Part shown: positions 12,008 to 64,000 of the stretch, piece after piece
How positions within the stretch are numbered: position 1 is the first letter of the stretch
Layout of the letters: each line of letters opens with the position of its first letter
From: Bacteroidota bacterium
Lineage (GTDB): Bacteria > Bacteroidota > Bacteroidia > Palsa-965
DNA: 64,000 nucleotides
Direction of reading: 5' to 3'
NCBI GenBank assembly: GCA_006218065.1
Contig: VBWE01000002.1
Span: 10,154-74,153, forward strand
Position numbers and translations under genes: made by a program
The notes under the pieces: generated by a model
Database searches by the model: none
The model's input: the letters and a program-made list of their open reading frames with translations, nothing else
What the model was told of the DNA's origin: nothing

Positions 12008-12013
12008 AAGGCC

Positions 12014-42813: not shown

Positions 42814-42821
42814 CAGATATA

Positions 42822-46893: not shown

Positions 46894-47024
46894 GGATGAC
46901 GTGAGGAAGCCGCTCGCTTCCCTTTTGTGTATTGCTACCCTGTGAGAAAAGGGATCACTAACACACGAGAGCATTCAAGGATCTTCTTTCGAAGATGATG
47001 AACGCTACCTGATAATGTCGACTG

Positions 47025-48197: not shown

Positions 48198-49067
48198 CTA
48201 ATTCAAATAAGCCCGTGCTGTGTTTTCGAATTCAAGATCATTGTATTGCTCGTAAACGAATGTTGATATCGGGTTACTGTGGCCTAATCCTTTTTGAATG
48301 AATGCAAGCGGTGCAAGTTGATCTCGCCGTTTATGTGCCCAACCATGCCTGAAACTATGCGGAGTGATTTTTTCTTTTATTCCAGCTTTATGAACATAGT
48401 ACTGAACTCTTCGTTGCACAGAACGAGGAGTGAGTCGGATTGTCCACCCACGTGTGCACCAACCTACAAAAAGAGATTTAGCTCCATTCGTTTTATGTAA
48501 TCCCAGACGAATTGCCATATATTTCATTAAATACTCCTGTGTTGTTTGCGACCACATAATGATACGAGGCTTCCCTGTTTTCTTCGTAGCGATAACTGTT
48601 GAGGTCTTATTTTCGTCAATATTAGTGACTTCTAAATCGCATAATTCTGAAACACGTATACCGGTATCCCATAGAAGGTGTACCATTACTAAATCCCGTA
48701 AGGACATAAATTCATTCGATGGAATTACGGACGCTATCTTTTCAAATTCGGAGGCTGTAATCGCACGATGAGATTTGACGTGTATTCTTGGAAGCTTAAT
48801 AAGGGAAGGAGAAATACATCTGTAGTGCTGCTGTTGCCAAAACGCGAAAAAATTCTTGAGAACAACAATGGCAAATTGTATTGTTGCAGAATTATATCGC
48901 ACTTCCAGCCAAGAACGATATTTTACTATATCGCTGATCGCGTAGTGCTCAAGTGGTTTATTATCACAGAGACTACTAAAGCGAATCAGCCAGATTTTGT
49001 AATTGATGCTTGCTCGCGGCGCGTAAGTCCCCTTCCATTCTAAATATTCTTTTATTTTTTCTTGCAT
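48198..49067 (-). CDS. small tyrosine recombinase (XerC/XerD-like, phage integrase family)
   Basis: ..HSFRHGWAHKRRDQLAPLAFIQKGLGHSNPISTFVY.. (HxxR..Y) is present and an N-terminal SAM-like domain precedes it. The start is at the internal Met MQEKIKEYLEW. Confidence 0.85.
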   Translation of the reverse strand: MQEKIKEYLEWKGTYAPRASINYKIWLIRFSSLCDNKPLEHYAISDIVKYRSWLEVRYNSATIQFAIVVLKNFFAFWQQQHYRCISPSLIKLPRIHVKSHRAITASEFEKIASVIPSNEFMSLRDLVMVHLLWDTGIRVSELCDLEVTNIDENKTSTVIATKKTGKPRIIMWSQTTQEYLMKYMAIRLGLHKTNGAKSLFVGWCTRGWTIRLTPRSVQRRVQYYVHKAGIKEKITPHSFRHGWAHKRRDQLAPLAFIQKGLGHSNPISTFVYEQYNDLEFENTARAYLN

Positions 49068-49080
49068 AAAAACGCAAAAC

Positions 49081-49199
49081 CCACCAAGATGAACTGGCGG
49101 GTCTGCGCTATCCTGTTTCCAGGATACGCTAAAGCATAGCAAGAGATAAAGAAAAAATAAAGTGAAGAAGGCTATTGGACCCCGCTGTTCATCTGGTTC
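49081..49199. repeat. ~22-bp imperfect inverted repeats flanking a 74-bp segment, between divergent recombinase and NYN genes
   Basis: 49083-49103 accaagatgaactggcgggtc matches rc of 49178-49199 aaccagatgaacagcggggtcc at ~18 of 21. An inner hairpin atcctg..caggat is present. Confidence 0.55.
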
Positions 49200-49343: not shown

Positions 49344-49841
49344 ATGAAAAAAGATCGAAAAAGCTTTGCCTATATAGACAGCGCAAATTTGTACAAAGGA
49401 TGTATCGCAGAAGGGTTTAGAGTGGATTACAAAAAACTAAGAATATATTTAGAGGAACGGCATGGTGTAAAAACCGCTTATATGTTCATCGGTTTTGTCG
49501 GAGGCAATGAAGAAATGTATAAAAACTTTCAAGAGTGGGGCTATACACTTATTTTCAAGCCAACTATACCGGGTGAAAATGGCGTTATTAAAGGCAACTG
49601 CGATGCTGAATTAGTGTTGCAATCAGTCTCTGATTTTTATGAGCAGAAATACGAGCAGTCTGTCATTGTTTCAAGCGACGGTGATTTTGCATGCCTGATT
49701 AAATTTCTCTTAAAGCGTGATGCGCTTGATTGTATATTAAGCCCGAGGGCAGAAGAAAAATGCTCAAGCCTGCTGAAGACGGTTGGGGCAAAACTGACAT
49801 TCCTGCCGCAAGTAAGAGACAAGATCAGCTTGCAGAAATGA
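49344..49841 (+). CDS. NYN-domain (LabA-like, PIN-fold) protein
   Basis: ..FAYIDSANLYKG.., ..NCDAELVL.. and ..VIVSSDGDFACL.. are acidic residues typical of the NYN ribonuclease domain. Confidence 0.7.
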   Translation: MKKDRKSFAYIDSANLYKGCIAEGFRVDYKKLRIYLEERHGVKTAYMFIGFVGGNEEMYKNFQEWGYTLIFKPTIPGENGVIKGNCDAELVLQSVSDFYEQKYEQSVIVSSDGDFACLIKFLLKRDALDCILSPRAEEKCSSLLKTVGAKLTFLPQVRDKISLQK

Positions 49842-51283: not shown

Positions 51284-52243
51284 TTAGAAATGTATTTTTA
51301 CTTCGCCGGTTCCGTCGGCGTTCATGATGTAAATATTGCTCTCCGAGAATATAGTATTATCGCCAATCAATTTCTGATCCCATCTGCTTGCAATAATCTT
51401 GCTGCCGTCTCCGGAAATATCGATAACCACATACAATTTGGTGTCGCAGAATGTCTTGATGATCTGCGTCTGTAAACCGGGCAGGTCTGTTATGAAAAAA
51501 GAACGTGATGTTTTCCAAAGCAGGCGCTGAGAATCCGGGAACCAGTCGCTGTAGCTGATGATGTCTTTCGCGTCGCCGATCTCGATGGCAGCGACTTCCG
51601 AAATCTGCCCGGTGTTCGGATTGATACTGATAATTGCATTTGATGAAGGGCCAGTGCTCACGGGAGAAGATATTTTTTGGCTGTCATTTGACCAGGAGCC
51701 GTTGCTCAATATAAATCCGGGAAGCGTATCGAGAGGATTGCCCTCATCATCTGCAATGATCGAATAGTTATTTGCCCCGTCTGTCCGCCGGAACACGTAT
51801 CTATCCCCCGCATAATTCCACACGGCATCGAAGCATGACGAGGTGAATGTTAGTTGAGTCAGACTGTCGCCGTTGCTTTTGATCTTCCACACATTGTTGT
51901 CGCCGTGATTGAAAAGAATCCAGCCGTTTCTTCCCCAGTCGGGTTTTTGAAATATGCTTGTTGTGAGAAGATAGTCGTTACCGGTCGAGCGGTTTTTTAT
52001 TCGCAGTTCCGTTTGACCGGTACTTTTCGTTTCTCGCACATAGACGAATTCATTACTGTTATTTGGATTGAAGCACGGAGCGAGATAGAGAGAGGCCGGA
52101 TATTGGTATGAATATCCAAACGGTCCCGTTGATGGCGGGAAGTCAAAACAATTCCCCTCAAGCGAGAAAGCAATATCCTTGCTGCATGAAAAAAACAACA
52201 TGCAGCAAGAGATAATCGCTATGGCTCGGTGTAAAGAAATCAT
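51284..52243 (-). CDS. lipoprotein with TolB-like (PD40/WD40-like) beta-propeller repeats
   Basis: The product has a lipobox (..CCMLFFSCSK). Repeated ..DG..I.F.S.R.G..NIY...DG.. patterns are present. Confidence 0.5.
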   Translation of the reverse strand: MISLHRAIAIISCCMLFFSCSKDIAFSLEGNCFDFPPSTGPFGYSYQYPASLYLAPCFNPNNSNEFVYVRETKSTGQTELRIKNRSTGNDYLLTTSIFQKPDWGRNGWILFNHGDNNVWKIKSNGDSLTQLTFTSSCFDAVWNYAGDRYVFRRTDGANNYSIIADDEGNPLDTLPGFILSNGSWSNDSQKISSPVSTGPSSNAIISINPNTGQISEVAAIEIGDAKDIISYSDWFPDSQRLLWKTSRSFFITDLPGLQTQIIKTFCDTKLYVVIDISGDGSKIIASRWDQKLIGDNTIFSESNIYIMNADGTGEVKIHF

Positions 52244-55200
52244 TTGTGTACCACTATCATTTTTTTCTGGATACTCCCTTTTTCAGTTGTAACCGTGGCA
52301 ATATATGCACCATCTGAGACATCTGTCGTTTCAATTGTCGTCGTGTGCATTCCCTCTGCTAATTTCCCCATATTCGTCGACTTAACCAACCGTCCTTGCA
52401 TATCGTAAAGATCGACGGTTACTGCGCTTGCTTCACTCAACGAGACTGGAATCGAAAAAGAATTGTTAGACGGGTTCGGAAACGGTTCACCGACATTGAC
52501 AGCATTGCTTGCCGATTCGGTCATGCCGGTAAGCGTGGGATCGAAGGTCAAAACACTGAACGCGCAGAGTGTCCCGAATTGTGTCGTTGGGAGGAAAGTA
52601 TTCACGGCCTGTCCTGTCGTTAAGTTAAACGTAAAATGATAAAAGTATGTTTCCATGACCGCCTGGTTATTGGTATAGGAAACGATTGTGCTCCACGCTT
52701 CAGTGCCGATAGGGTTTGACAGACTCCATCCGAATGATGAGTTATAGCGGGGCCACGCCGAGAGAATCGTTTCTCCGACCGGAATCGGAGCGTAGTTTAG
52801 TGTATGGGTAACTTTATGGATATCGGCAAGATACGCTCCTGCGGCAACGCTCTGGTAATTGTTTGGAAGAATGACGGCGACGTTTTGCGCAAATAAGCTC
52901 GGACTGACGCTTGATCCAGTCGTGTTTGTTGCAAAGTGATAGACCTTGTACGCGGGATAGTTCACGAAGGTAAGCGACTGGCCCGCGTTGATTCTGCCGT
53001 ACCCGGTGTATTGGTCATACCCCGGCGCAGACGGTGACACGGAAAGATCAACTGCAGCAGCCTGGAGGAGATACTCAATATCCTCGGGAGCAAGATGAAA
53101 CAGGAATGGAGTGGTCTGTGTGTTTACTTTGCTCACCATCAATGCGGCAGTTCCTGACACATGGGGTGCGGCGGCAGATGTCCCGTCGAATGGCTGATAA
53201 CCGTTTGTGATTGATTCAAGCGTGTACACAATATCAAGATCACCGGGTGCGCAAAAATCCATCCCTCCGCCATAGCTTGACGAATAGCTTGAGCTGCCGT
53301 TGCTTGGGGTCTTGTATTCTCCGTCATTGCCGGTTGAGCCGACGTTTAAGACGAACTCATCGTTGTAGCATGCAGGAACGGTAATATTCGAGTTCCCGTC
53401 ATTTCCCCGAGCTCCGACAACGACGACATTATTTCTCGCAGCGAAACGGACGGCATCTTTCAGAAGCGATATGCTGGCTGCAGGAAGCGGCCCGGCATCA
53501 CCCCTCCAACTGTTATTCATAATATGCAGACCATAACCGCCCTGGGTTGTACTGGTCGCTCCTCCGACGACTCCGTTTGCGATCAGCGAATAGGTCGCAA
53601 CGGCACTATTCGCGTCAAAGAGTTTCATGTCAAAAAGCGTCACGCCATCATATTGCGCCGTGCCGTTTCCCCCGGCAATGCCTGCTATGCCGGTACTGTT
53701 ATCCCGCAGGGCACCGATAATCCCTGCACATGCAGTTCCGTGTCCGAGCAGATCGTACGTCGGCGCAAGCGGAGCGTTGGTAATAAAGTTGAATCCCCCG
53801 GCGACTTTTCCTTGCAGGTCGGGATGTGTTTGGTCGATGCCGGAGTCATAAACGCCGACACGGATAGTTGCGTTCCCTTTCTCGATATCCCACGCCGGTT
53901 CAATATTGATTCCTGCACTCGGGAAGGGATTATTTGGATGCAGGCTGAATTGGTTGCTTATGTATTGCGGATCATTCGGCACATCGGCCAGTTCGGCAAC
54001 GTAGTTCGGATGTGCGTACCAAATTTCCGGCTGCACGGTATTGAGCGAATCGGCGACAGCGATTTCCATACCTGGCTGCACGAACAGCCGGAGTGCGGCC
54101 CAAAAAGACGAGATCGGAACAGTATCGCCGAGTCTTGATATTGAAACGGTGTCGTTTGTCGAGAGCTTTAAAAATATCTTCGCAACTTTCCAATCGGTTA
54201 CGTCCGTACCGAGCTTTGCGTTCATCACCGCAATCGCAGACGGTTTGACGAACTCGTGCAAGACACCAAATTGTTTATCGGGATCATTGACGGCAGGAGT
54301 ATCGATAACGCTCGGGTCGAAACGAACAACGACTTCACCGGTTGCAAATGCCATTCCCGGCAAGCTTGTTGTATCAACCACAAGGGCCGTTTCAAGGAAT
54401 GAGTATTTGATTGTCGCGTACTGATCGGCGTTGCCGGTCGATGATTTTCCAGTGACATACATCGTGCTGTTTCGTATCGACACGTCAAACGATTTGTCAC
54501 TCGCATTTGTGGGAGCATTGAAAAAATTCTCCCAGGCCTTCGTGCCGGAGCTGTCGTACTTGATTGTCAGGTAATCTTTGTTTCCGGCAGCGTTCGTCAT
54601 TTCCCCGGTTACATACACATTTCCGGAATTATCGACGGTCAGCTTATGTGCTTCTCCGAAGTCCGTCGGCGAGGGTGCCGCTTCTCGTTTTACCCATTGT
54701 TGTATTCCGGCAGCCGAATATTTTGCGGTCGTAAAATCCTTGCCGCCGTTTGTTTTCTTGGTGTACCCGGTGAAGATCACGTCGCCGTTTGCGTTAAGAG
54801 CGAGCGCATTGGCGCAGTCCTCAAGATTTTCGCCGTTGTATTGCTGCACCCACTGCAATGTGAGAGCCGTGTTCAGTTTCAGCACGAGTGCATTGCCTGC
54901 GGTTGTATTCTGTGCAGTACCGCCAGAGACGAACACATTGCCTGCATTATCGAGCGTGATCGCTGTCGCCTTGTCATAGCCGTTGCCTGAAATAGCATGA
55001 CGATACGCTCCGACTTGTGTTCCTGCCGTGTTGTATTTGATTACGGTAATGTCGGAATTGAAGAAACTGCTTGCGCTTGAGCCCGCAACATAGCTATTCC
55101 CGGCGTTATCAACTGCAAGCCCGAACGGAATATCCGGGAGGTTAGCGAAGTTGTATCGCTTCACCCATTGTTGCATACCGGCACCGTTGTATTTGATCGT

Positions 55201-55728
55201 CACGAAATCGGAGTTCAGTGCATTTCCCGTGCCAACGCTTGCGCCGGTTATGTACACGTTGCCGGTATTGTCGAGGGCTATTGCCGCTGCAATATCGTTT
55301 TTGTTGCCAGTACCGTTATACAATACGCTCCAGAGGAGACTGCCGGTTGCACTGTATTTGAGCGTTACAAAATCATAGCTGCTCGTCGCATTACTCCAAG
55401 TTGCACCAGTTACGAAAATATTACCGCTATTGTCCCGGATGATCGCGCTGCCGAAATCAGGACCGTTCGATGTTCCGTTGTATTGCTGTTGCCAGCAAAT
55501 CGTTCCGTTAGAATTGTATTTGACGGTCAGGAGATTCGTTCCTTGACTTATTGTCTTGGTATTTCCGACAATAACAGCGCAGCCGCTGTTATCTATAGCC
55601 GTCATGGTGAAATCAACCGTATCGGGAAACGCGTTGACGGCTTCCCATTCGCGATTACATAATGTTGTTTGTCCGTCTACACCGTATGCTCCAGCTATCA
55701 GGAGAGAAATAAGAATAGCCTTTTTCAT
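52240..55728 (-). CDS. S8-family subtilisin-like serine peptidase with N-terminal SBBP beta-propeller repeats and T9SS C-terminal sorting domain
   Basis: SBBP repeats recur (..DNSGNIFVTG..DFVTLKYS..G..W..). The subtilase catalytic triad motifs are GVYDSGID (Asp), HGTACAGIIG (His) and GTSAAAPHVSG (Ser). The T9SS tail is ..FPNPSNNSFSIPVS..GAYIATVTT... Confidence 0.85.
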   Translation of the reverse strand: MKKAILISLLIAGAYGVDGQTTLCNREWEAVNAFPDTVDFTMTAIDNSGCAVIVGNTKTISQGTNLLTVKYNSNGTICWQQQYNGTSNGPDFGSAIIRDNSGNIFVTGATWSNATSSYDFVTLKYSATGSLLWSVLYNGTGNKNDIAAAIALDNTGNVYITGASVGTGNALNSDFVTIKYNGAGMQQWVKRYNFANLPDIPFGLAVDNAGNSYVAGSSASSFFNSDITVIKYNTAGTQVGAYRHAISGNGYDKATAITLDNAGNVFVSGGTAQNTTAGNALVLKLNTALTLQWVQQYNGENLEDCANALALNANGDVIFTGYTKKTNGGKDFTTAKYSAAGIQQWVKREAAPSPTDFGEAHKLTVDNSGNVYVTGEMTNAAGNKDYLTIKYDSSGTKAWENFFNAPTNASDKSFDVSIRNSTMYVTGKSSTGNADQYATIKYSFLETALVVDTTSLPGMAFATGEVVVRFDPSVIDTPAVNDPDKQFGVLHEFVKPSAIAVMNAKLGTDVTDWKVAKIFLKLSTNDTVSISRLGDTVPISSFWAALRLFVQPGMEIAVADSLNTVQPEIWYAHPNYVAELADVPNDPQYISNQFSLHPNNPFPSAGINIEPAWDIEKGNATIRVGVYDSGIDQTHPDLQGKVAGGFNFITNAPLAPTYDLLGHGTACAGIIGALRDNSTGIAGIAGGNGTAQYDGVTLFDMKLFDANSAVATYSLIANGVVGGATSTTQGGYGLHIMNNSWRGDAGPLPAASISLLKDAVRFAARNNVVVVGARGNDGNSNITVPACYNDEFVLNVGSTGNDGEYKTPSNGSSSYSSSYGGGMDFCAPGDLDIVYTLESITNGYQPFDGTSAAAPHVSGTAALMVSKVNTQTTPFLFHLAPEDIEYLLQAAAVDLSVSPSAPGYDQYTGYGRINAGQSLTFVNYPAYKVYHFATNTTGSSVSPSLFAQNVAVILPNNYQSVAAGAYLADIHKVTHTLNYAPIPVGETILSAWPRYNSSFGWSLSNPIGTEAWSTIVSYTNNQAVMETYFYHFTFNLTTGQAVNTFLPTTQFGTLCAFSVLTFDPTLTGMTESASNAVNVGEPFPNPSNNSFSIPVSLSEASAVTVDLYDMQGRLVKSTNMGKLAEGMHTTTIETTDVSDGAYIATVTTEKGSIQKKMIVVHK

Positions 55729-56025
55729 TGTTATTCATTTTTAAGGGTCAATACTCCGTTTGTATTGCTCGGGGAGAAGCAATTGCATTTTAAAAATGGA
55801 TTCGAATATGAAGCAAGGATATGCCTTACTTCATATTCAATCGGGACGGATCGCCAAATCCTATGTGATACGGGGGATGGGTTCAGTTACGCTTGCTCTT
55901 CAGATATTCTTAGCGTAAGACGAATATATAAATTATTCGTTGCTTGGTACAAATTAAAATTTGTCATTTTTATACATGTCCAACTGATCGTTAACGAATG
56001 AGGAGAAGAGAAAAAATAACCGGTT

Positions 56026-56475
56026 TCATTGGACATCTTTAATTTTCATGGCCATGATCTTCCAGATATCCTCTTTGCATTGCAGATAGCATTCACCAGA
56101 AAATTGTATTACCGATCCTTTTTGATAAAACGTACAAATTGTCGGCGACTTGACCTTTTCTTTCGGTTCTTCCATTACGATCTGAATGTCTTGTATATAA
56201 CCGTCGGGGAGAGAAGTACTGGCCAGCCATATGTTTTTATTAGGAGATCCTTTTGCAGTCCATTTGAGCACATAGAATGAGCCAAACCCTTCATTGTGTT
56301 CTTCATGTATGCTTGTTTTCTCAAAATGTGTTATTAAAAATTCACCCGTTGATTTAAAATTGATCCATTGGGTAAAAAAATCTTGAACAACAGTAAGCTG
56401 TTTATCTGTCTCTGTGTTCCCACAAGAGATGAAGCCACAGATAAAAAGGAAACCGAAAATTAGGTTCGTTTTCAT
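56026..56475 (-). CDS. hypothetical lipoprotein
   Basis: The product starts MKTNLIFGFLFICGFISCGN. Confidence 0.5.
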   Translation of the reverse strand: MKTNLIFGFLFICGFISCGNTETDKQLTVVQDFFTQWINFKSTGEFLITHFEKTSIHEEHNEGFGSFYVLKWTAKGSPNKNIWLASTSLPDGYIQDIQIVMEEPKEKVKSPTICTFYQKGSVIQFSGECYLQCKEDIWKIMAMKIKDVQ

Positions 56476-56508
56476 GAGAAACAGGTTTTAGGGTAAAACG
56501 TAGATGTA

Positions 56509-57687
56509 TTATCGGATTTTCTTCAAGAGTTCTTCCGTCCCGGAGACATCGGAAACGCCTTCAATTTTTGCCAGCCGAATTGCTTCGCGCGCAGATTTCT
56601 CCGCATCTTCTTTCCGGCCGAGCGTGTAGAGAAGAGCGGCATACGTGTCGGTATTGGCATAGGCGGCGTGCATGTCGATGGATTTTTTCGCCCACCCAAG
56701 TGCTTTGGCGAGATAGACGGTATCGCTCACCTGTTTATAGAACGCCCATGCCATATTATTTAACCCCCAGATATCATTCGCAGGCATGTGCTGTTCGACA
56801 AACCGCGTGGCCGTTTTTGCATAGGCGTTCCAGTTTTTTGTACGCTCGTAATACGAGATATCCATGCCAGTCAAAAAACGGTCGGCATTCGGCAGCTTGA
56901 GCGCAAGAACATCACTCCGGAGTTTCAGATAGCCGAGCGTATCGACCGGTTTTTTTTCAAAGAGCGTATTTCTCATTGCACCCCGGTACACGCGTTCAAT
57001 CACCAACGCGACGGAATCAGCCGTGTAACGGTTTTCAAAGGCAGACCGGTGGGAGCAGAGATATTGGAAAGAATGTGTATTCGGGTCTGACACAAAATCA
57101 CGGAGTACGGTCCAGCTTTCCCGGTTGAGGTATTCGGTCTCGGAAAGTGTGGCTAAAAACGCGTTCGTTTCCTCTTCTACCGGCAGGCAGCAGGCGCGTT
57201 TCATGTTCATATAGTGGATAAGCTCCTTCGCCTGCATCTTCCCTGTTTCATACTGTGTTTGGTATGCGGCAAAGCATGTTTGCGGAGTACTGGTTTTCTC
57301 GCCAATAGCAACAAATGGCGCGACCAGATATGCTCCGCTGACCCTATGGATAAGCACTCCTTTCTCGTCGAGAAATAGATATGTCGGGAAGCAGCGCACA
57401 TCGTACCGCTTGGCGATCTCGATTCCCTCTCCTTTTTCCATGTCGAATTTGCTGGAGATAAAATGAGTGTTGTAAAACTGCGCTGCCGTATCGTTGGCAA
57501 AGACATTTTTGTCCATCCACTTGCACGGCCCGCACCAGGTTGTGTAGCAGTCGAGAAAAACAAGTTTGTGTTTCGTTTGCGCTTTCTCAAGCACGCAAGC
57601 GAGTGAGCCGCTTTCAAAGCGGATTTGCGCGGAAAGGGATGCTACAAGGAGCAGCAGGGCGAGGATAAAGAGAGATCGGTTTTTCAT
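56509..57687 (-). CDS. secreted thioredoxin-fold protein
   Basis: The product has a signal peptide. ..FLDCYTTWCGPCKWMDKNVF.. carries a CxxC thioredoxin motif. The C-terminal half is helical and TPR-like. Confidence 0.7.
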   Translation of the reverse strand: MKNRSLFILALLLLVASLSAQIRFESGSLACVLEKAQTKHKLVFLDCYTTWCGPCKWMDKNVFANDTAAQFYNTHFISSKFDMEKGEGIEIAKRYDVRCFPTYLFLDEKGVLIHRVSGAYLVAPFVAIGEKTSTPQTCFAAYQTQYETGKMQAKELIHYMNMKRACCLPVEEETNAFLATLSETEYLNRESWTVLRDFVSDPNTHSFQYLCSHRSAFENRYTADSVALVIERVYRGAMRNTLFEKKPVDTLGYLKLRSDVLALKLPNADRFLTGMDISYYERTKNWNAYAKTATRFVEQHMPANDIWGLNNMAWAFYKQVSDTVYLAKALGWAKKSIDMHAAYANTDTYAALLYTLGRKEDAEKSAREAIRLAKIEGVSDVSGTEELLKKIR

Positions 57688-57783
57688 GGCTTTCTATGAT
57701 TTTGTGCGATAAATCTAACAATTATTCTATAAAGTGAGATATATCTCACACATTTATTCTGTACTGGATAGATTTTTGTTTGT

Positions 57784-58014
57784 GTGAAGGGCAAGAGTTC
57801 AAAACAGTTTCGAAAAGCGCTTGGGCAAAGGATTCGGGTACTCCGGAAAAGCCAGAAGATTTCCCAGGCTCAGCTTGCGTATGAAGTCGGTGTTACCCGC
57901 GAGACAATCGTGTATATCGAGCGCGGAGTACAGAATGCGACGACGGATGCGATCTACAATATTGCGGTTGCTCTCGGCATATCCATGAAGGAATTGCATG
58001 ATTTTGAGTGGTAG
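57784..58014 (+). CDS. XRE-family HTH transcriptional regulator
   Basis: ..LGQRIRVLRKSQKISQAQLAYEVGVTRETIVYIERG.. Confidence 0.75.
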   Translation: MKGKSSKQFRKALGQRIRVLRKSQKISQAQLAYEVGVTRETIVYIERGVQNATTDAIYNIAVALGISMKELHDFEW

Positions 58015-58108
58015 CCTCCTTTCTCTTTTAGTGATACAAGAATAACGAAAAAACGAACATGTAGCGTATGCGCTACAATAAATTTTATGCGATCAGGAAC
58101 TTCAATTC

Positions 58109-58351
58109 GTGAATGCGTCAGACAAGAAGTACCTGTGTGCGCTTGGAAAGGCTATCCGCGAACTGCGGGAAGCTCAAGGAATTTCTCAAGATCAGCTTGC
58201 ATATGAAAGCGGTCTCCACCGGACGACTATAAATCGGATTGAAAACGGTCACTTCGATGCTGGTGCGTTAGCGCTTCGCGCAATCGCCAAAGCACTCAAT
58301 GTTCCGACGACCGGTGAGATTTTCTTGTTTGAGAAGAAGGAGGGGAAATAA
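58109..58351 (+). CDS. XRE-family HTH transcriptional regulator (paralog of 57784..58014)
   Basis: ..LGKAIRELREAQGISQDQLAYESGLHRTTINRIENG.. Confidence 0.75.
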   Translation: MNASDKKYLCALGKAIRELREAQGISQDQLAYESGLHRTTINRIENGHFDAGALALRAIAKALNVPTTGEIFLFEKKEGK

Positions 58352-58354
58352 AAA

Positions 58355-58384
58355 AGCCCCCGGAAGTAAAATACTTCGGGGGCT
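58355..58384 (+). terminator. stem-loop terminator after XRE genes
   Basis: agcccccggaagt-aaaat-acttcgggggct has a perfect 12-13 bp stem. A weak T-tract follows. Confidence 0.55.
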
Positions 58385-58811
58385 GACAATTAACGCATCA
58401 GTCTAACCAAAACCAAGAGGTCGCTGAGAGAAATACTATACACTATTGCGTATATAGATGTCAACAAATGTTAAACGATTTTAAATTGGAGAAATAATCG
58501 CATTCAAACCTAAACCCGCTCTCACCGGCGGGATTTTTATTTTATAACGATTCCCGAGGAGCGCAAGCGCATCGTTCACCTTTTTCCCGCCAAGTTTCTT
58601 TTCCTGATCGTCCAAGAACCTTTTTGGTCGGCAAAGATATTTCCTGCCTGGTCGGGAGCAAGGCAGGATGAATGAGGCTCGAAGAAAACTCCGTTCCCCC
58701 TCTGGAGGGAACCCACGAACTTTTCTTCGACCTCGCCTTGCACCCTCATGTCAGCGCACGTAAAAGTGGGCCTTCAAAAAAAGGTTCCCCTGGCGACAGG
58801 GTGAAGAAAAA

Positions 58812-59282
58812 ATGAAGGCCATGAAAAAGAAACAATTTGTCAGCGATGTTCAACTCACCTACCAACGGACCGACATTCCGACGGTCAAAATTCTCTCATC
58901 CTTTGATGCCGTACAGCCATGTATCGACCTTATTCCAAAAGGACAAATCGCGTTACGTGAATTCTTCGGCACGCTTCTCCTGAATCGGACAAACCACGTA
59001 TTGAATCGCTGCCTGCTTTCCTCGGGAGGCTCCTGCTCAACAGTCGTTGATATCAAACACCTGATGCAATACGTCATTCTTTCCAATGCAGTTGGGATCG
59101 TTTTATTTCACAATCACCCGTCAGGAAATGTCCGGCCCTCTGCCCAGGACTGCAGCACGACAAGGCAGATCAAAGAAGCCTGCCGGATTTTCGATATCAA
59201 TCTGCTCGATCACATTATCCTTTCAGGATACCCGCTTGAAGATCCGGGCTTCTTCAGCTTCTCGGATAACGGGATGCTGTAA
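58812..59282 (+). CDS. radC: RadC-like JAB-domain protein
   Basis: ..VVDIKHLMQYVILSNAVGIVLFHNHPSGNVRPSAQD.. is the JAMM/RadC signature (HNHPSG). Confidence 0.85.
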   Translation: MKAMKKKQFVSDVQLTYQRTDIPTVKILSSFDAVQPCIDLIPKGQIALREFFGTLLLNRTNHVLNRCLLSSGGSCSTVVDIKHLMQYVILSNAVGIVLFHNHPSGNVRPSAQDCSTTRQIKEACRIFDINLLDHIILSGYPLEDPGFFSFSDNGML

Positions 59283-59381
59283 GGTGGTTCATTTTATATA
59301 CCGCGGCTCGATCTTTGAATCGAGTCGCGGTTCGTTTGTATCAGCAATTAAACTATTTTGGTAATACCTATAAGAAAACTC

Positions 59382-60050
59382 ATGAGAACGATTTTATTAT
59401 TCCTCCTGGCAACAACACTTCTTTGTACAGGTACCGGCGCGATTAATAAAGAAAAACCCTGTTCGGAAACGTTTAGTGGAAAAAGGCGTGAAATAGTAAA
59501 AACAAACATTGCAAGCGGAGTACAGACAACAATTACTATTTCCGAACTATATAACAGGCCGATGCCGAGTGAAAAAACAATGAAAGAAAAGTATAAAGTG
59601 ACCGATAAATCTGGACGGAGTGAACCGGAAAAGGAAAACGTAACAATTATCTGCTGGTTATATACCTATGTTCATGAAGGAGATGGTGACTATCATCTTA
59701 TTATTGGAAGCTCGTCGGACAAGGATAAAGCGCGATTTTTTAGTGCAGAAATATCTGGCTTACCGAAAAAGACGTCCATAAATTATAAATATTACAACCA
59801 GCTAAAAAAAGCAAGGGACCAGTTTAAATCGCTTATCGCAGATTATTCACCATGTCCTTCGACATACGTCCAAAGTCTTTTCGATAAACCCATGAAAATT
59901 GAAGTTACTGGAAATCTTTATTGGGATACCGAGCATGCTGGTGGTAGTTGCTGCTCGGGAACAACAAGAAAGAAGGATGGGTTTGTATTTAAATCAGAAT
60001 CACCTTGGGAAATTCATCCTGTAACAGAGATTCATCCCATTGAAGATTAG
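59382..60050 (+). CDS. secreted hypothetical protein
   Basis: The product starts with the signal peptide MRTILLFLLATTLLCTGTGA. No recognisable domain is present. Confidence 0.5.
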   Translation: MRTILLFLLATTLLCTGTGAINKEKPCSETFSGKRREIVKTNIASGVQTTITISELYNRPMPSEKTMKEKYKVTDKSGRSEPEKENVTIICWLYTYVHEGDGDYHLIIGSSSDKDKARFFSAEISGLPKKTSINYKYYNQLKKARDQFKSLIADYSPCPSTYVQSLFDKPMKIEVTGNLYWDTEHAGGSCCSGTTRKKDGFVFKSESPWEIHPVTEIHPIED

Positions 60051-60093
60051 AAAAACAATTCTAAAATGATTAAGAGTAGAGCAGGTAGAAACG

Positions 60094-60621
60094 TTAAAAC
60101 CAATTGAATGATTTTGTGTTTGAAAGCCTGAATGTCATAGCCTGACTGCTAACGTTAAAGAGGTTTGCCAACTCTTGGATTGAACCCTCTTCGGTTAAAT
60201 CGTAGTTGTGATTCTTAATTTCCCGAAACAATATTTTTTCAGGCATCAGCAAAGCAGCAGCAAATGCATTGGCTTCTTGTTCTTTTCGAATTTCTTTCGT
60301 GGTAGACTTTTGGCTCCTAAATTCAACTCTAAATCCTTTATCAATAAAAAGACCGCCGATATTTCCATGTAGAACGAAATGGCCAAATTCATGAGCAATA
60401 GTAAATCGCTGTCGTAATGTCGATTCGTTTGGATTATATCCAATAATGCCAACACCATTACTTATTACCAAAACTCCCGAAACATCTTCTCCTAAATCGT
60501 AGGGTTTGACCTCAAGTCCATAGCTAGTTGCAATTTTGTCAACAGGTATAGGGAGTTCATTAATTTGCAAATCATCCAGGATTTTTGCGGTTTTTCTTTC
60601 AATGGCTGATCTGTCATTCAT
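60094..60621 (-). CDS. ImmA/IrrE-family metallo-endopeptidase
   Basis: The HEXXH motif is ..FTIAHEFGHFVLH... It follows an XRE gene with a 2-bp gap. Confidence 0.8.
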   Translation of the reverse strand: MNDRSAIERKTAKILDDLQINELPIPVDKIATSYGLEVKPYDLGEDVSGVLVISNGVGIIGYNPNESTLRQRFTIAHEFGHFVLHGNIGGLFIDKGFRVEFRSQKSTTKEIRKEQEANAFAAALLMPEKILFREIKNHNYDLTEEGSIQELANLFNVSSQAMTFRLSNTKSFNWF

Positions 60622-60973
60622 GGCGCACAGAGATTTGTGTATGAACGTGTTCGATGAAATCAATTAGTTGCTCTTTGGAGCGTTTTCCGATATTAGATTC
60701 TTTGACGATTCGTTTTTGTATTTCAGAATTTGCAACTTCTGAAGTAGTAAAGCCTGGGAGCAGCTTTGCCACATCTATTTTAAGCACTTTTGCCATATCC
60801 CACAGTGTATGAGTCGGAGTATGTTGTCTCCCCTTTTCGATATTCACTATGGACGCTCTGCTAAGCTTGAGTAATTTAGCAAGAGTTTCTTGCTTTAAGC
60901 CAGCGGTAACCCTGGCAGTCTTGATGTGTGCACCAAGGGCTTCATAAAACCGTTTTTGTTCGGAAACAGTCAT
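60614..60973 (-). CDS. XRE-family HTH regulator (ImmR-like partner of ImmA)
   Basis: ..LGAHIKTARVTAGLKQETLAKLLKLSRASIVNIEKG.. Confidence 0.75.
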   Translation of the reverse strand: MTVSEQKRFYEALGAHIKTARVTAGLKQETLAKLLKLSRASIVNIEKGRQHTPTHTLWDMAKVLKIDVAKLLPGFTTSEVANSEIQKRIVKESNIGKRSKEQLIDFIEHVHTQISVRHE

Positions 60974-61387
60974 TACTAAGGATTGGTTGGGCAAATATAG
61001 GTAAAAGTTGAATATCGCAAACTGTTTGTATTATTTTACTTTTGTAAAATTGATTATTTGCAGTATTTGACATTTTAAAAAAAAATTATATTTTTGTTTC
61101 AACACCACTATTGTTAAAGATAACGTATGAATGTGAAAATCCCCAGATGGTGGTTCATCCAGGGATTTTAGGAATGCAAACAGTTGGACTTTGAGCAAGG
61201 CAGAGCCTTGTGCATTCCCCTTTTGTTACGCGAGTAACGGCACAAATATAACGGCGATTATTTGCTTAGCAAATAAATCTGCTGTCGTATCTGGCCCGGC
61301 ACAACAAAAGTATCCATCAAAGCTGCCGGGATCAGTCTCTTCCCGTGATTTTGAGGCATATTAATTAAACTTCAAATCTGTAAAAAG

Positions 61388-61612
61388 ATGGCGAAGAAAA
61401 ATGTGCATGTAGTTCCCCGCGGTAAAAATTGGGCCGTTGTCGGAGCCGGAAACGAAAAAGCAACTGCGGTGACAAACACCCAGGCTGAAGCAATCAAAAT
61501 TGCAAAGCCTATTGCGAAAAACCAGCAATCTGAACTTGTCGTTCATGGCACCGATGGCAAAATCAGAGAAAAGAACTCATACGGGCCAGATTCCTTTCCA
61601 CCGAAAGGATAA
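61388..61612 (+). CDS. DUF2188-family small protein
   Basis: MAKKNVHVVPRGKNWAVVGAGNEKATAVTNTQAEAIKIAKPIAKNQQSELVVHGTDGKIREKNSYGPD.. matches the DUF2188 pattern recalled from memory. Confidence 0.65.
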   Translation: MAKKNVHVVPRGKNWAVVGAGNEKATAVTNTQAEAIKIAKPIAKNQQSELVVHGTDGKIREKNSYGPDSFPPKG

Positions 61613-61698
61613 ATGTGAAAGGTTAAATTATAGAAGTGGGCGTTAGCCTGCTTCTATTTTTCTTTTTAATTAAATCGGCAAACACAAAAAGCAAACAC

Positions 61699-62100
61699 AT
61701 GAAAAACCTATACTTAATTCTTGATATTACCGAGGGAGCGACTGTGGACGAAATAAAGAAAGCTTACCGCGCACTCGCAAAGCAACACCACCCGGATAAG
61801 AATAATGGCAGTAAAGAATCGGAAGAACGTTTCAAGAAGATTCGAGAAGCCTATGAAATCTTGAGTGACGAGGACAAAAAGAGAGCATATGACTTCGAAC
61901 TTGCGCAGGCTCGTCGGGCCGAAGCGCAGGCGAAACGATATTCAAGCAATAGAACCGGATCAGCCAATACACATGGGATGCCATATCCCTCAATACCAAA
62001 ATTCAATTGGGGTGCAGCAGTAGCATTCTTTTTAATCTTTATTGCAATTGCAGCAGCATTCGCATCGGATGATAAACCCTCAAACTCAAAAATCGGATAG
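61699..62100 (+). CDS. J-domain (DnaJ-like) protein with C-terminal transmembrane anchor
   Basis: The J domain carries an HPD motif (..DEIKKAYRALAKQHHPDKNNGSKESEERFKKIREAYEILSD..). The C-terminal TM helix is ..WGAAVAFFLIFIAIAAAFA... Confidence 0.75.
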   Translation: MKNLYLILDITEGATVDEIKKAYRALAKQHHPDKNNGSKESEERFKKIREAYEILSDEDKKRAYDFELAQARRAEAQAKRYSSNRTGSANTHGMPYPSIPKFNWGAAVAFFLIFIAIAAAFASDDKPSNSKIG

Positions 62101-62102
62101 TT

Positions 62103-62942
62103 ATGGTATTTGTTAAACAAATCGGGAAGGGCGGACTTGGAATCGTCCAACTCTACAAGCATGAAAGAAGTGGAAATCTTTATGCTGTGAAGCGCATGCA
62201 GTGCGCCTGGGATAACAACCACTTTGAACGGTTTGTTCGTGAGATTAAACTCATGGCGAATCTCGTGCACAAGAACATCATGAAAATTTTGAAGCATGAT
62301 ATCGAAAACACAAGCCCATACTACATTATGCCGTTCTATAAAGAAGGAAGCTTGCGAGACCGGTTGAATGACATGAGCGGCAAAGGGAAAGTGTTTTCTC
62401 AGGAAGCTGCTGCATCAATCATTTTTGTTTTAGCTGAAGCGCTTGCCTATTCACATAAAAAAGGTGCTATTCATAGGGATTTGAAACCCGAGAACATCAT
62501 GTTTGAAGGAAGAGAGCCCATAATTGCAGATTGGGGCCTTGGAAAGTTTATTCACCGGGAATCAAAAGTACTTACAGGTGCCGGGTTAGGAACTCCTTTA
62601 TACTGTGCTCCCGAGCAATGGAATTACGGCAAGGCAGACGCAAGGTCTGATATTTATTCATTAGGGAGAATATTTAACGAGCTCCTTACGGGCAATATTT
62701 TTGGGCATGTAGCGAATGATCGGTTGCGGGCAATCATTAAAAAAATGACTCGAGAGAATCCGAATGAACGATACCAGAATATGGACGAGGTTATTGTTGC
62801 GATCAAGAACCTGCATGTAGTGAATGAAGAAGCCCCAATGGATGCATTTTGGGAAGGCTTGTTGATTGCCGGTGCTGCTATTGTGGCGGCAGCAGCAATA
62901 GCAGGGCTTCTCGCCTGGGCTTTTGGTGATAACTCCAATTAA
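62103..62942 (+). CDS. Hanks-type Ser/Thr protein kinase with C-terminal transmembrane anchor
   Basis: The glycine-rich loop is IGKGGLGIV. Also present are the catalytic Lys in AVKRM, the HRDLKPENIM catalytic loop, DWG in place of DFG, and APE in GTPLYCAPE. The C-terminal TM helix is ..LLIAGAAIVAAAAIAGLLAWAF... The start is 3 bp after the J-domain stop. Confidence 0.8.
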   Translation: MVFVKQIGKGGLGIVQLYKHERSGNLYAVKRMQCAWDNNHFERFVREIKLMANLVHKNIMKILKHDIENTSPYYIMPFYKEGSLRDRLNDMSGKGKVFSQEAAASIIFVLAEALAYSHKKGAIHRDLKPENIMFEGREPIIADWGLGKFIHRESKVLTGAGLGTPLYCAPEQWNYGKADARSDIYSLGRIFNELLTGNIFGHVANDRLRAIIKKMTRENPNERYQNMDEVIVAIKNLHVVNEEAPMDAFWEGLLIAGAAIVAAAAIAGLLAWAFGDNSN

Positions 62943-62983
62943 TAGGTAAGTGTAAAAAAGTAATACAATCCTAAAGCATTTTT

Positions 62984-64000
62984 ATGTCCATATCCAATAT
63001 TCCCGACCCTGTTAAATTTATTCTTTGGGCAAAGGCAGCAGGTCGTTGCCAATATGAAGGATGTCCGAAAATCCTGTACTTGGAAGATTTCACAAAAGCG
63101 GAATTCAATCAGGCTTATACCGCACACATAATTGCCGATGTGCCGACTGGTCCTCGCGGCGATGCAGTGCTATCTAAAAAGTTAAAGAAGGATATATCTA
63201 ATCTTATGTTGCTCTGCGATGCACACCATCGGTTGATAGACAAAGTAGATATAGCAGGACATCCCGTTGAACGTTTGTGTGAGATGAAACAGCGACATGA
63301 AAAAAGAATGGAGCTGCTTACTGCAATTCAAGAGAGTAAGCGGAGCCATGTTCTAATGTACGGGGCAAACATCGGGAAGCATGAAACTCCCCTTACTAAA
63401 AGTGAAGCCCATTTGGCAATGATACCTGAACGATATCCTGCAGAGGCAAATCCTCTTGAGTTAGGAATGAAAGCAAGCTCGCTCGAGGATCGAAATGAGA
63501 TTTTTTGGAAAGTGGAAGAAGAGCATTTGCAAACACGCTTTCAACAACGTGTCTCGCCTTTAAAGGGTACTCATGAAGTACAGCATTTCTCTGTATTTGC
63601 GATGGCTCCTCAACCGTTATTAATCAGGCTCGGCACGTTACTTTCGGATTTGTATCCCGCAGACGTATATCAACGACATCGGGAGCCAGCTACTTGGAAA
63701 TGGCAGGATAAGGCCGATGTCGAGGATTTCGAATTGATTGAGCCGACTGATAAGAGTGGTATACCGGCCCTTGTCTTTGCCCTGAGTGCAACCATAAACG
63801 ATGATCGCATCACGACTGCACTTGAGAACAAAGCTTCTATCTGGAAAGTCATGGTATCGAAGCCCGGGAATAACTTTCTAAGAAAGAAAGACCTGCTTGA
63901 AAAATTCCGAATGCGGACAAGACATCTTCTGAATGAAATAAAAGCTCACCACGGAGAGTATGCGAACATTCATGTTTTTCCCGCTATGCCGGTTTCTACA
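62984..64000 (+). CDS. HNH endonuclease-domain protein with C-terminal uncharacterised (possibly SAVED/CARF-like) region; partial, continues beyond window
   Basis: The frame is open for 339 codons from ATG 62984 to the window edge. It is not in the ORF track because there is no stop. The N-terminal HNH motifs are ..GRCQYEGCPK.., ..AHIIADVPTGPRGD.. and ..NLMLLCDAHHRLIDK... The C-terminal ~200 aa (..HFSVFAMAPQPLLIRLGTLL..IHVFPAMPVST) has no confident assignment. Confidence 0.7.
   Translation, partial: MSISNIPDPVKFILWAKAAGRCQYEGCPKILYLEDFTKAEFNQAYTAHIIADVPTGPRGDAVLSKKLKKDISNLMLLCDAHHRLIDKVDIAGHPVERLCEMKQRHEKRMELLTAIQESKRSHVLMYGANIGKHETPLTKSEAHLAMIPERYPAEANPLELGMKASSLEDRNEIFWKVEEEHLQTRFQQRVSPLKGTHEVQHFSVFAMAPQPLLIRLGTLLSDLYPADVYQRHREPATWKWQDKADVEDFELIEPTDKSGIPALVFALSATINDDRITTALENKASIWKVMVSKPGNNFLRKKDLLEKFRMRTRHLLNEIKAHHGEYANIHVFPAMPVST

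What the first reader, a model, noticed from the sequence alone, without database searches (positions are those of the whole stretch)
62984..64000. HNH nuclease with possible SAVED-like sensor domain (Cap5-like CBASS effector architecture), truncated by window edge
The N-terminal ~110 aa carry textbook HNH motifs (CxxxxC, HII-D, LCxxHH). The remaining 200+ aa form a separate domain with alternating hydrophobic beta-strand-like segments (..HFSVFAMAPQPLLIRLGTLL.., ..IHVFPAMPVS..) reminiscent of CARF/SAVED folds. HNH fused to SAVED is the Cap5 effector of CBASS systems. If this is correct, a CD-NTase cyclase might lie just past the window end. Alternatively the upstream kinase module could be an unconventional partner. 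The SAVED assignment is a guess from sequence pattern only.
Basis: inference. Interest (0 to 1): 0.65.

Follow-up and report, generated by a model that had tools for sequence, protein, structure and literature searches.

The report
Cap5 nuclease of an E2-type CBASS
The gene cut off by the window edge is a genuine Cap5, the DNA-cutting suicide effector of a standard three-gene bacterial anti-phage alarm system (CBASS) whose signal-making enzyme lies just past the window end, so it is a correct but ordinary finding.

Summary
The ORF at 62984..64000 (+) is open for 339 codons. It matches Pfam SAVED (E=5.6e-35), PADLOC CBASS endonuclease effector models (E=9e-137) and the crystal structure of Asticcacaulis Cap5 (7RWK).

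A public contig that is 100% identical to the last 11.9 kb of the window (L001) shows what follows. The full protein is 376 aa. Twelve bases after its stop comes a clade-G-like CD-NTase (413 aa), then an E2-only protein (149 aa). This is a type II-short (E2) CBASS, in the same gene order as the published CdnG-Cap5 operons.

The HNH catalytic and zinc residues, the SAVED residues shown to matter in AsCap5, the cyclase Asp triad, the cyclase C-terminal Gly and the E2 Cys are all present. An AlphaFold model (pLDDT 90) retrieves only Cap5 structures as its top hits.

The upstream DnaJ-kinase pair is not a conserved CBASS partner. None of 37 informative related Cap5 loci, and none of the three next-closest relatives, has it. 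The kinase family mostly occurs without CBASS. One diverged locus does repeat DnaJ-kinase-Cap5-CdnG, so a lineage-specific link is not excluded.

Verdict: a new member of a well-known kind, of low interest.

The parts
62984..64000 (+). cap5: HNH-SAVED CBASS effector nuclease. This is the first 339 of 376 codons. The gene continues to window-equivalent 64114 (L001 10882..12012).
62984..63313 (+). HNH nuclease domain, about aa 1-110. It carries the catalytic His48, the Mg2+ ligands His82 and Asp86, Asn73, and the zinc ligands Cys22, Cys27, Cys78 and His81.
   Evidence: The alignment to PsCap5 8fm1 maps H56, H91 and D95 of PsCap5 (PMC12141522) onto H48, H82 and D86. C22, C27, H48, N73, C78, H82 and D86 are invariant in 36 and in 61 homologues. 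Position 81 is Cys in 22 of 36 and His in 14 and is nearly invariant His in the 61.
63527..64000 (+). SAVED sensor domain (Pfam match from aa 182), cut at aa 339 by the window end. R233, D222 and R313 lie inside the window. K350 and D352 lie beyond it.
   Evidence: Pfam PF18145. Mapping to AsCap5 R231, D220, R310, K347 and D349.
62943..62983 (+). A 41-nt AT-rich spacer between the kinase stop and the cap5 start. It has no terminator-like hairpin.
62103..62942 (+). Hanks-type Ser/Thr kinase with a C-terminal transmembrane helix. It is a neighbour and probably not part of the CBASS.
   Evidence: Pfam Pkinase E=6e-42. Contexts of 10 family loci.
61699..62100 (+). J-domain (DnaJ) protein with a C-terminal transmembrane helix. 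It ends 2 nt before the kinase start. It is a neighbour module.
   Evidence: Pfam DnaJ E=4e-26. The same architecture is seen in L085 and L088.
60094..60973 (-). An ImmA/IrrE-type metallopeptidase (60094..60621) and an XRE HTH protein (60614..60973). This CapP/CapH-like pair is divergent from the + strand genes and is a possible transcriptional regulator of them.
   Evidence: PADLOC capP E=1.2e-36 and capH E=3.3e-9. The arrangement is compared with Lau et al. 10.1101/2022.04.27.489752.

Best explanation
The ORF is cap5, the effector of a three-gene type II-short (E2-only) CBASS anti-phage system with gene order cap5-cdnG-E2. The system sits as cargo on a tRNA-Asn-integrated mobile element of a Bacteroidota bacterium.

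Inferred mechanism, taken from characterised homologues:
1. On phage infection the clade-G CD-NTase makes a cyclic dinucleotide, most likely 3',2'-cGAMP.
2. The E2 protein processes and covalently holds the cyclase through the cyclase's conserved C-terminal Gly407, using E2 Cys92, and so regulates it.
3. The nucleotide binds between the SAVED domains of Cap5.
4. Binding reorganises Cap5 dimers into an active oligomer, and the HNH domains (His48, His82, Asp86, Mg2+) degrade double-stranded DNA non-specifically.
5. The infected cell dies before the phage completes its cycle.

Shown here: the domain identities, the conserved functional residues, the operon composition and its conservation in relatives. 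Inferred: the ligand, the trigger and the abortive-infection outcome.
For: Cap5 identity:
- Pfam SAVED and PADLOC Cap5-type effector models cover the protein end to end.
- The full-length protein matches AsCap5 7RWK at E=1.8e-91 over aa 10-368, and also the Deinococcus, Lactococcus and Pseudomonas Cap5 structures.
- The AF2 model (pLDDT 90.4) retrieves only Cap5 chains as its top 37 Foldseek hits.

Functional residues:
- H48, H82 and D86 correspond to PsCap5 H56, H91 and D95.
- R233, D222, R313, K350 and D352 correspond to AsCap5 R231, D220, R310, K347 and D349, which were mutationally important or ligand-discriminating.

Operon:
- L001 is 100% identical to window 52103..64000.
- It carries the cyclase 12 nt downstream (PADLOC Cyclase E=4e-132; PDB 9woo, SmCdnG 8hsb_A and BdCdnG 7ljn).
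- It then carries the E2 (PADLOC E2 E=3e-46; SmE2 8hsb_B E=7.7e-17), which overlaps the cyclase gene by 26 nt.
- The cyclase has D78, D80, D136 and G407. The E2 Cys92 is invariant in 29/29 relatives.

Conservation:
- In 53 related metagenome loci, wherever the contig allows, the genes found are Cap5-CdnG-E2 (33 loci) or CdnG-E2-Cap5 (5 loci).
- The next-closest relatives, L091 and L092, have the same trio in unrelated surroundings.

Literature for the mechanism: PMC8568899, PMC12141522, PMC12948482.
Against: - No biochemical or phage data exist for this locus.
- The cyclase has QGGF where 36 of 36 aligned relatives and L085 have QGS. Gly fits the general NTase motif hG[GS], but it is atypical for CD-NTases and could lower or alter activity.
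- The ligand is inferred only from homology to 3',2'-cGAMP-responsive Cap5 proteins (41% identity to AsCap5) and the conserved Arg233.
- The downstream genes are read from an identical public contig, not from the window itself.
Confidence: 0.93

Rival explanations
1. The upstream membrane-anchored DnaJ protein and Hanks-type kinase form one five-gene system with the CBASS. They would act, for example, as an envelope-stress or phage sensor, or as a regulator that phosphorylates the cyclase, E2 or Cap5.
For: - All five genes are on the same strand with tight spacing. DnaJ to kinase is 2 nt, and kinase to cap5 is 41 nt with no terminator-like hairpin.
- A strong terminator-like hairpin lies before DnaJ and a long hairpin lies after E2. 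GC content is uniform at 0.41-0.44.
- A second, diverged locus (L085: kinase 70%, Cap5 73%, CdnG 64%, DnaJ 40% identity) repeats DnaJ-kinase-Cap5-CdnG. Its upstream flank is unrelated.
- The kinase hits PADLOC defence kinase models (PD-T4-6, mad6).
- Kinase-based regulation of immune operons has a precedent of a different kinase type, CapK/CapS (PMC13373217).
Against: - None of the 37 related Cap5 loci with at least 2 kb of upstream sequence has a kinase or DnaJ upstream.
- The three next-closest Cap5 relatives (61, 59 and 57% identity) lack them.
- Of 10 kinase-family loci examined, only 2 have CBASS and only 3 have DnaJ.
- L088 shares RadC, DnaJ and kinase with the window but has other genes downstream. 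L094 shares the relaxase and kinase. The kinase therefore looks like mobile-element backbone and the CBASS like swappable cargo.
- The CBASS trio is complete by published definitions without any extra genes.
Confidence: 0.08
2. The HNH-SAVED protein is an orphan, or belongs to another signalling system such as type III CRISPR or a Cap4-like system, rather than being a CBASS Cap5.
For: SAVED domains also occur in CRISPR-associated and other effectors. Weaker Foldseek hits include Cap4, SAVED-CHAT and TM-SAVED.
Against: - The best sequence and fold matches are all Cap5, by many orders of magnitude.
- A CD-NTase and an E2 immediately follow in the identical contig.
- No hits to cas gene models or CRISPR arrays came up in the family scans of neighbouring proteins or in the Rfam scan.
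Confidence: 0.01
3. The system is a decayed, non-functional remnant.
For: The unique Ser-to-Gly change in the cyclase QGS motif. The island is full of mobile-element genes.
Against: - All three ORFs are intact and full length relative to their profiles.
- All other catalytic and regulatory residues are conserved.
- The GGA codon is identical in two independent assemblies.
- Gly is allowed in the general NTase hG[GS] motif (established knowledge).
Confidence: 0.06

Closest known systems
Asticcacaulis sp. CdnG-Cap5 system (AsCap5, PDB 7RWK; Fatma et al. 2021, PMC8568899)
   Same: - The domain architecture is the same: HNH, a short linker, then SAVED.
- The gene order is the same: cap5, cdnG, then a third small gene.
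- It matches at E=1.8e-91 over aa 10-368.
- AsCap5 R231, D220, R310, K347 and D349 are all conserved here as R233, D222, R313, K350 and D352, and the CCCH zinc site is conserved too.
   Different: Identity is only about 41% in the structural alignment. The host is a Bacteroidota MAG rather than an alphaproteobacterium. No biochemistry exists for this protein. The ligand is inferred.
Pseudomonas syringae Cap5 (PDB 8FM1/8FMF/9DIF; PMC12141522)
   Same: The fold is the same (Foldseek E about 1e-27, TM 0.67-0.69). The catalytic His/His/Asp are conserved (H56, H91, D95 correspond to H48, H82, D86).
   Different: Identity is about 24%. PsCap5 has Cys where this protein has His81 as the fourth zinc ligand. 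The tetramer activation mechanism is assumed here, not shown.
Serratia marcescens E2-CBASS (SmCdnG-SmE2, PDB 8HSB/9KKB; PMC12948482)
   Same: - The cyclase is long, 413 aa.
- It has a conserved C-terminal Gly, here in F-H-G407 followed by a 6-aa tail.
- The E2-only partner has an invariant Cys (C92, corresponding to SmE2 C101).
- No E1 or JAB gene hit PADLOC CBASS models. A RadC-type JAB protein lies about 3.7 kb upstream.
   Different: - Similarity is moderate: cyclase E=3.4e-36, mostly over the C-terminal half, and E2 E=7.7e-17.
- The cyclase motif is QGGF instead of QGSV.
- The cyclase and E2 genes overlap by 26 nt.
CapH/CapP regulators of CBASS (Lau et al., 10.1101/2022.04.27.489752)
   Same: An XRE HTH gene and a PF06114-type Zn-metallopeptidase gene lie upstream of the CBASS, on the opposite strand and within 10 kb. 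They hit PADLOC capH and capP. They directly face a DUF2188 gene, an association also reported in that paper.
   Different: - The peptidase is 175 aa and matches only positions 4-154 of the 242-position capP profile, so the C-terminal GAF region is missing.
- DUF2188, a terminator-like hairpin, DnaJ and the kinase separate the pair from cap5.
- The pair is not found next to related CBASS loci.
- It may equally be the ImmR/ImmA-type switch of the mobile element.

Membership tests
Cap5 (HNH-SAVED CBASS effector) | N-terminal HNH nuclease with a catalytic His and Mg2+-binding His/Asp | tested here: met
   H48, H82 and D86 align to PsCap5 H56, H91 and D95. They are invariant in 36 and in 61 homologues.
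Cap5 (HNH-SAVED CBASS effector) | Structural zinc site in the HNH domain | tested here: met
   C22, C27 and C78 are invariant. Position 81 is His or Cys (14 versus 22 of 36). AsCap5 has the same C..C / CDAHH pattern.
Cap5 (HNH-SAVED CBASS effector) | C-terminal SAVED domain (fused double CARF-like fold) | tested here: met
   Pfam PF18145 E=7.6e-50 over 190/190 positions. NCBIfam SAVED E=5.2e-38. The AF2 model matches the SAVED-only chains 8ysq and 7rws with TM 0.85-0.86 and rmsd about 3 A.
Cap5 (HNH-SAVED CBASS effector) | Ligand-pocket and back-face residues shown to matter in AsCap5/LlCap5 | tested here: met
   R233, D222, R313, K350 and D352 align to AsCap5 R231, D220, R310, K347 and D349. 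R233 and K350 are invariant in 36 homologues.
Cap5 (HNH-SAVED CBASS effector) | Encoded in an operon with a CD-NTase | tested here: met
   The cyclase starts 12 nt after the cap5 stop in L001, which is 100% identical to the window tail.
Cap5 (HNH-SAVED CBASS effector) | Cyclic-dinucleotide-activated dsDNA degradation | not testable with these tools
   Requires a nuclease assay with 3',2'-cGAMP and related nucleotides.
Type II-short (E2-only) CBASS | CD-NTase with an NTase active site (G[GS] ... DxD ... D) | tested here: met
   Q59-G-G-F, D78, D80 and D136 are present. The Asp residues are invariant or nearly so in 37 relatives. The Ser-to-Gly change at position 61 is unique.
Type II-short (E2-only) CBASS | Cyclase of clade G, extended length, with a conserved C-terminal Gly | tested here: met
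   The only PDB hits are cGAMP synthase 9woo, SmCdnG and BdCdnG. Length is 413 aa. G407 is conserved in 33/37 relatives. No formal clade phylogeny was built.
Type II-short (E2-only) CBASS | Small E2-like protein with a catalytic Cys, and no E1 domain or JAB (Cap3) gene | tested here: met
   The protein is 149 aa. PADLOC E2 E=3e-46 and SmE2 E=7.7e-17. Cys92 is invariant in 29/29. The only JAB-type protein nearby is a RadC-family gene 3.7 kb upstream. It has no PADLOC hit, and a related RadC occurs in L088, which lacks CBASS.
Type II-short (E2-only) CBASS | Covalent E2-cyclase linkage and phage defence | not testable with these tools
   Needs co-expression with SDS-PAGE or mass spectrometry, and plaque assays.
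CapH/CapP transcriptional regulator pair | HTH repressor plus Zn-metallopeptidase upstream of, and opposite to, the immune operon | tested here: inconclusive
   The orientation and the PADLOC hits fit. However, three genes and a terminator-like hairpin intervene, and ImmR/ImmA pairs of mobile elements look the same.
CapH/CapP transcriptional regulator pair | CapP three-domain architecture (peptidase, HTH-like linker, C-terminal GAF) | tested here: not met
   The protein is 175 aa and matches only positions 4-154 of the 242-position capP profile. It has no significant PDB match to CapP or IrrE.
CapK/CapS kinase regulators of immune operons | Anti-sigma-factor-type kinase plus a STAS-domain repressor | tested here: not met
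   The kinase here is Hanks-type (PF00069) and its partner is a J-domain protein. CapK/CapS are described as anti-sigma kinase and STAS proteins (PMC13373217).

The most novel reading that the evidence does not exclude
In one Bacteroidota lineage (this locus and the diverged freshwater locus L085), a membrane-anchored J-domain protein and a membrane-anchored Hanks-type kinase have been recruited as upstream accessory genes of an E2-CBASS. They would form a five-gene unit in which envelope- or chaperone-linked signals reach the cyclase, E2 or Cap5 by phosphorylation.
Probability: 0.08. Interest if true: 0.6.

Novelty: new member of a known kind. Interest (0 to 1): 0.15.

Why it matters
It matters little beyond annotation. 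The protein is deposited as 'hypothetical protein FD123_409' in a Bacteroidetes MAG and can be renamed Cap5 of an E2-type CBASS. It adds a Bacteroidota example carried on a tRNA-Asn-integrated mobile element.

Two things could repay follow-up:
- the unique Gly in the cyclase QGS motif;
- the recurrent DnaJ-kinase pair immediately upstream, which would be a new kind of CBASS accessory module if it proved functionally coupled.

Tried and rejected
- Kinase as a CBASS partner. I scanned GTDB genomes with the kinase. The one close relative, L003, stands alone without DnaJ or CBASS.
- Viral contig scans. The kinase scan found nothing, and the DnaJ scan found only generic J-domains.
- CapK/CapS. I considered and rejected this for the kinase because the kinase fold is different.
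- RadC-type JAB protein at 58812..59282 as a Cap3 equivalent. I rejected this. It has no PADLOC hit, and a related RadC is also present in the CBASS-less element L088.
- Caspase-like gene downstream on the opposite strand (L001 13855..14670). It has no PADLOC hit and no recurrence next to relatives, so I did not include it.
- Rfam scan of the window and L001. It found only the tRNA.
- Literature search for CBASS together with DnaJ or a kinase. It gave nothing relevant.
- PDB sequence search for the CapP-like peptidase. It gave no CapP or IrrE hit.

Full report
**Observation**

The sequence from 62984 has an ATG followed by 339 sense codons up to the last base of the window.
- C22-QYEG-C27.
- A-H48-IIAD.
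- LL-C78-DA-H81-H82-RLI-D86.

The protein is clearly real. Pfam finds a SAVED domain (PF18145, E=5.6e-35, aa 182-338, cut at model position 155/190 by the window end). NCBIfam finds SAVED at E=5.2e-38. PADLOC's CBASS 'Effector/Endonuclease' and 'SAVED_HNH' models match end to end (PDLC00739 E=9.4e-137, aa 2-338 on profile 4-340/378). A sequence search of the PDB gives AsCap5 (7RWK) at E=3.6e-75, followed by four more Cap5 entries, the LlCap5 SAVED-domain chain (7rws) and an HNH endonuclease (9om4).

**Getting past the window edge**

The complete kinase protein just upstream (62103..62942) was looked up by exact sequence. It lies on an ENA metagenome contig of 196 kb (L001) and on an independent Logan assembly (L002). 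L001 is 100.000% identical to window 52103..64000 over 11,898 bases with no gaps. I therefore treat it as the continuation of the window, with window coordinate = L001 coordinate + 52102.

In L001 the following genes are seen:
- The ORF ends at 12012, which gives a 376-aa protein.
- Twelve bases later a 413-aa ORF starts (12024..13265).
- Overlapping that ORF by 26 nt, a 149-aa ORF follows (13240..13689).

PADLOC calls the two downstream ORFs CBASS 'Cyclase' (PDLC00780, E=4e-132) and 'E2' (PDLC00864, E=3.2e-46). Pfam sees DncV-like NTase/SMODS in the first.

In the PDB the cyclase hits only three sequences: a cGAMP synthase (9woo, 6.7e-56), Serratia SmCdnG (8hsb_A, 3.4e-36) and BdCdnG (7ljn). 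The E2 hits SmE2 (8hsb_B, 7.7e-17).

The locus is thus a type II-short, E2-only CBASS. It has the same cap5-cdnG-third-gene layout that Fatma et al. described for the Asticcacaulis and Lactococcus systems (PMC8568899).

**Functional residues**

*Cap5, HNH domain.* Using the printed alignments to solved Cap5 proteins, the PsCap5 catalytic His56 and Mg2+ ligands His91 and Asp95 (PMC12141522) correspond to His48, His82 and Asp86 here.

*Cap5, SAVED domain.* The AsCap5 residues that recognise or respond to 3',2'-cGAMP are R231, D220, R310, K347 and D349. They correspond to R233, D222, R313, K350 and D352 here. The last two lie beyond the window end.

*Conservation.* Among 36 non-redundant homologues extracted from related loci, and among 61 database homologues, C22, C27, H48, N73, C78, H82, D86 and K350 are invariant. 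R233 is invariant among the 36 and at least 90% conserved among the 61.

*Cyclase.* It has D78, D80 and D136, and the C-terminal F-H-G407 followed by a 6-residue tail. G407 is conserved in 33/37 relatives. This matches the 'conserved terminal glycine' that SmE2 cleaves and conjugates (PMC12948482).

*E2.* Cys92, which aligns with the SmE2 catalytic Cys region, is invariant in 29/29.

*One oddity.* The cyclase reads QGGF where 36/36 aligned relatives, the closest locus L085, and L091-L093 read QGS. The GGA codon is identical in both assemblies. Gly is permitted by the general nucleotidyltransferase motif hG[GS] (established knowledge), so I do not read this as inactivation. It is untested.

**Fold check**

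An AlphaFold2 model of the full protein (P0121, identical to the window protein) was built with a 61-sequence alignment. It has mean pLDDT 90.4.

Foldseek against the PDB returns Cap5 chains as the top 37 hits (7rwk_A E=3.6e-40). The isolated SAVED domains of Deinococcus and Lactococcus Cap5 align with target-normalised TM 0.85-0.86 and rmsd about 3 A. Cap14, TM-SAVED, Cap4 and SAVED-CHAT follow far behind. The high whole-chain rmsd values reflect the mobile HNH-SAVED hinge described in the literature, not a different fold.

**Is the kinase module a partner?**

*Arguments for a link:*
- DnaJ (61699..62100), the kinase (62103..62942) and cap5 (62984..) are co-directional. They are separated by 2 and 41 nt, with no terminator-like hairpin before cap5.
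- A 12-bp hairpin with a T-run lies just before DnaJ (window 61630..61657). A 15-bp inverted repeat lies right after E2.
- One diverged freshwater contig, L085, repeats DnaJ-kinase-Cap5-CdnG. Identities are DnaJ 40%, kinase 70%, Cap5 73% and CdnG 64%. Its upstream flank is unrelated.

*Arguments against a link:*
- A metagenome scan with Cap5 returned 53 loci at 33-52% identity. Where the contig allows, they carry Cap5-CdnG-E2 (33 loci) or CdnG-E2-Cap5 (5 loci). Of the 37 loci with at least 2 kb upstream, none has a kinase or J-protein there. The single weak kinase hit, in L042, is downstream on the other strand.
- The three next-closest Cap5 proteins in the large database (61, 59 and 57% identity) sit in other settings, and none has the kinase or DnaJ. 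L091 is inside a type I R-M operon and L092 is next to a Fic gene; both have the full trio. L093 lies among housekeeping genes and has Cap5 and an SMODS cyclase followed by a 254-aa protein with no Pfam hit rather than an E2.
- The kinase belongs to a family of about 60 short (about 270-280 aa) kinases; the few that carry a source name are from Bacteroidota MAGs. In the ten distinct loci I could inspect, CBASS is present in two and DnaJ in three.
- L088 shares RadC, DnaJ and kinase with the window but carries different genes downstream. L094 shares the relaxase and the kinase.

The simplest reading is that the kinase, with or without DnaJ, belongs to the backbone or accessory region of a family of Bacteroidota mobile elements. 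The CBASS trio is then interchangeable cargo placed next to it. I leave about 8% for a real, lineage-specific functional coupling. CapK/CapS, the published kinase regulators of immune operons, are of the anti-sigma/STAS type and are not related to this pair.

**Wider setting**

- tRNA-Asn (42740..42814) is followed by a tyrosine integrase (42927..44384).
- L001 ends with a relaxase and a TraG-like coupling protein.
- Between them lie a D12 adenine methyltransferase, a second integrase, an NYN protein, RadC, two small XRE proteins and a DUF2188 gene (PADLOC candidate PDC-S16).
- The CBASS is therefore cargo on an integrated mobilisable or conjugative element.

An ImmA/IrrE-type peptidase (60094..60621, minus strand) and an XRE protein (60614..60973, minus strand) face the + strand genes. 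They hit PADLOC capP (1.2e-36) and capH (3.3e-9). Lau et al. report such pairs upstream of, and opposite to, CBASS and also DUF2188 operons.

Three points count against calling them CapH/CapP. The peptidase lacks the C-terminal third of CapP. It is separated from cap5 by DUF2188, a terminator-like hairpin, DnaJ and the kinase. It is not found beside related CBASS loci. Whether the pair controls the CBASS or the element itself (ImmR/ImmA-like) is open.

**Mechanism**

These steps are inferred from homologues and not shown here.
1. A phage cue activates the CdnG-type cyclase. Prohead-protease cleavage of an activation loop has recently been proposed for clade G enzymes (preprint 10.64898/2026.03.04.709575).
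2. The E2 holds and processes the cyclase through Gly407 and Cys92.
3. The 3',2'-cGAMP product bridges Cap5 SAVED domains.
4. Active HNH sites assemble and the cell's DNA is degraded (PMC8568899, PMC12141522, PMC12948482).

**Verdict**

The observation and the main interpretation are confirmed. This is a new, well-conserved member of one of the most abundant CBASS types. The source record annotates it only as 'hypothetical protein'. Interest is low. The only mildly unusual points are the cyclase Gly61 and the recurring DnaJ-kinase neighbour.

Noticed in passing
L001 12198..12209 (window-equivalent 64300..64311): The CD-NTase has QGGF at aa 59-62. All 36 aligned relatives, and also L085, L091, L092 and L093, have QGS. 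The GGA codon is identical in two independent assemblies. The effect on activity is unknown.
   Followed up: partly
window 61699..62942 (+): A J-domain protein and a Hanks-type Ser/Thr kinase, each with a C-terminal transmembrane helix, lie 2 nt apart. The pair recurs in L085 and L088. The kinase family has about 60 members of 270-280 aa; the few with a source name are from Bacteroidota MAGs. It sits in mobile-element or defence-island contexts and hits PADLOC PD-T4-6 and mad6 kinase models. Its function is unknown.
   Followed up: partly
window 60094..60973 (-) and 61388..61612 (+): A CapP-like (short, no GAF domain) and CapH-like pair is divergent from a DUF2188 gene (PADLOC PDC-S16, E=9e-35). 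The DUF2188 gene is followed by a strong terminator-like hairpin at 61630..61657. This resembles the CapH/CapP-DUF2188 operons mentioned by Lau et al.
   Followed up: partly
window 42740..44384: tRNA-Asn (GTT) is immediately followed by a tyrosine integrase on the opposite strand. With the relaxase and TraG-like genes at L001 19291..20840, this suggests a tRNA-Asn-integrated mobilisable or conjugative element of about 30 kb or more that carries the CBASS. The att repeats were not searched for.
   Followed up: no
L001 13855..14670 (-) (window-equivalent 65957..66772): A 271-aa protein with a weak caspase (Peptidase_C14, E=1.2e-5) match lies convergent to the E2 gene. It has no PADLOC hit and is not seen beside related CBASS loci.
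   Followed up: partly
L064 770..2437: One related metagenome locus encodes the cyclase and E2 as a single 557-aa fusion. This is consistent with the covalent CdnG-E2 linkage reported for E2-CBASS and with PADLOC model PDLC00816.
   Followed up: no
L091 2885..11185: The closest database relative after L085 (Cap5 61% identity, Ignavibacteriales MAG) has its Cap5-CdnG-E2 trio inserted between the hsdM and a second hsdS gene of a type I restriction-modification operon.
   Followed up: no
window 46087..46974 (-), 48198..49142 (-), 49344..49841 (+), 58812..59282 (+): Further mobile-element or defence-island genes: a D12-class N6-adenine methyltransferase (orphan or type II-like), a second tyrosine recombinase, an NYN/LabA-like nuclease-domain protein and a RadC-like JAB protein.
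   Followed up: no
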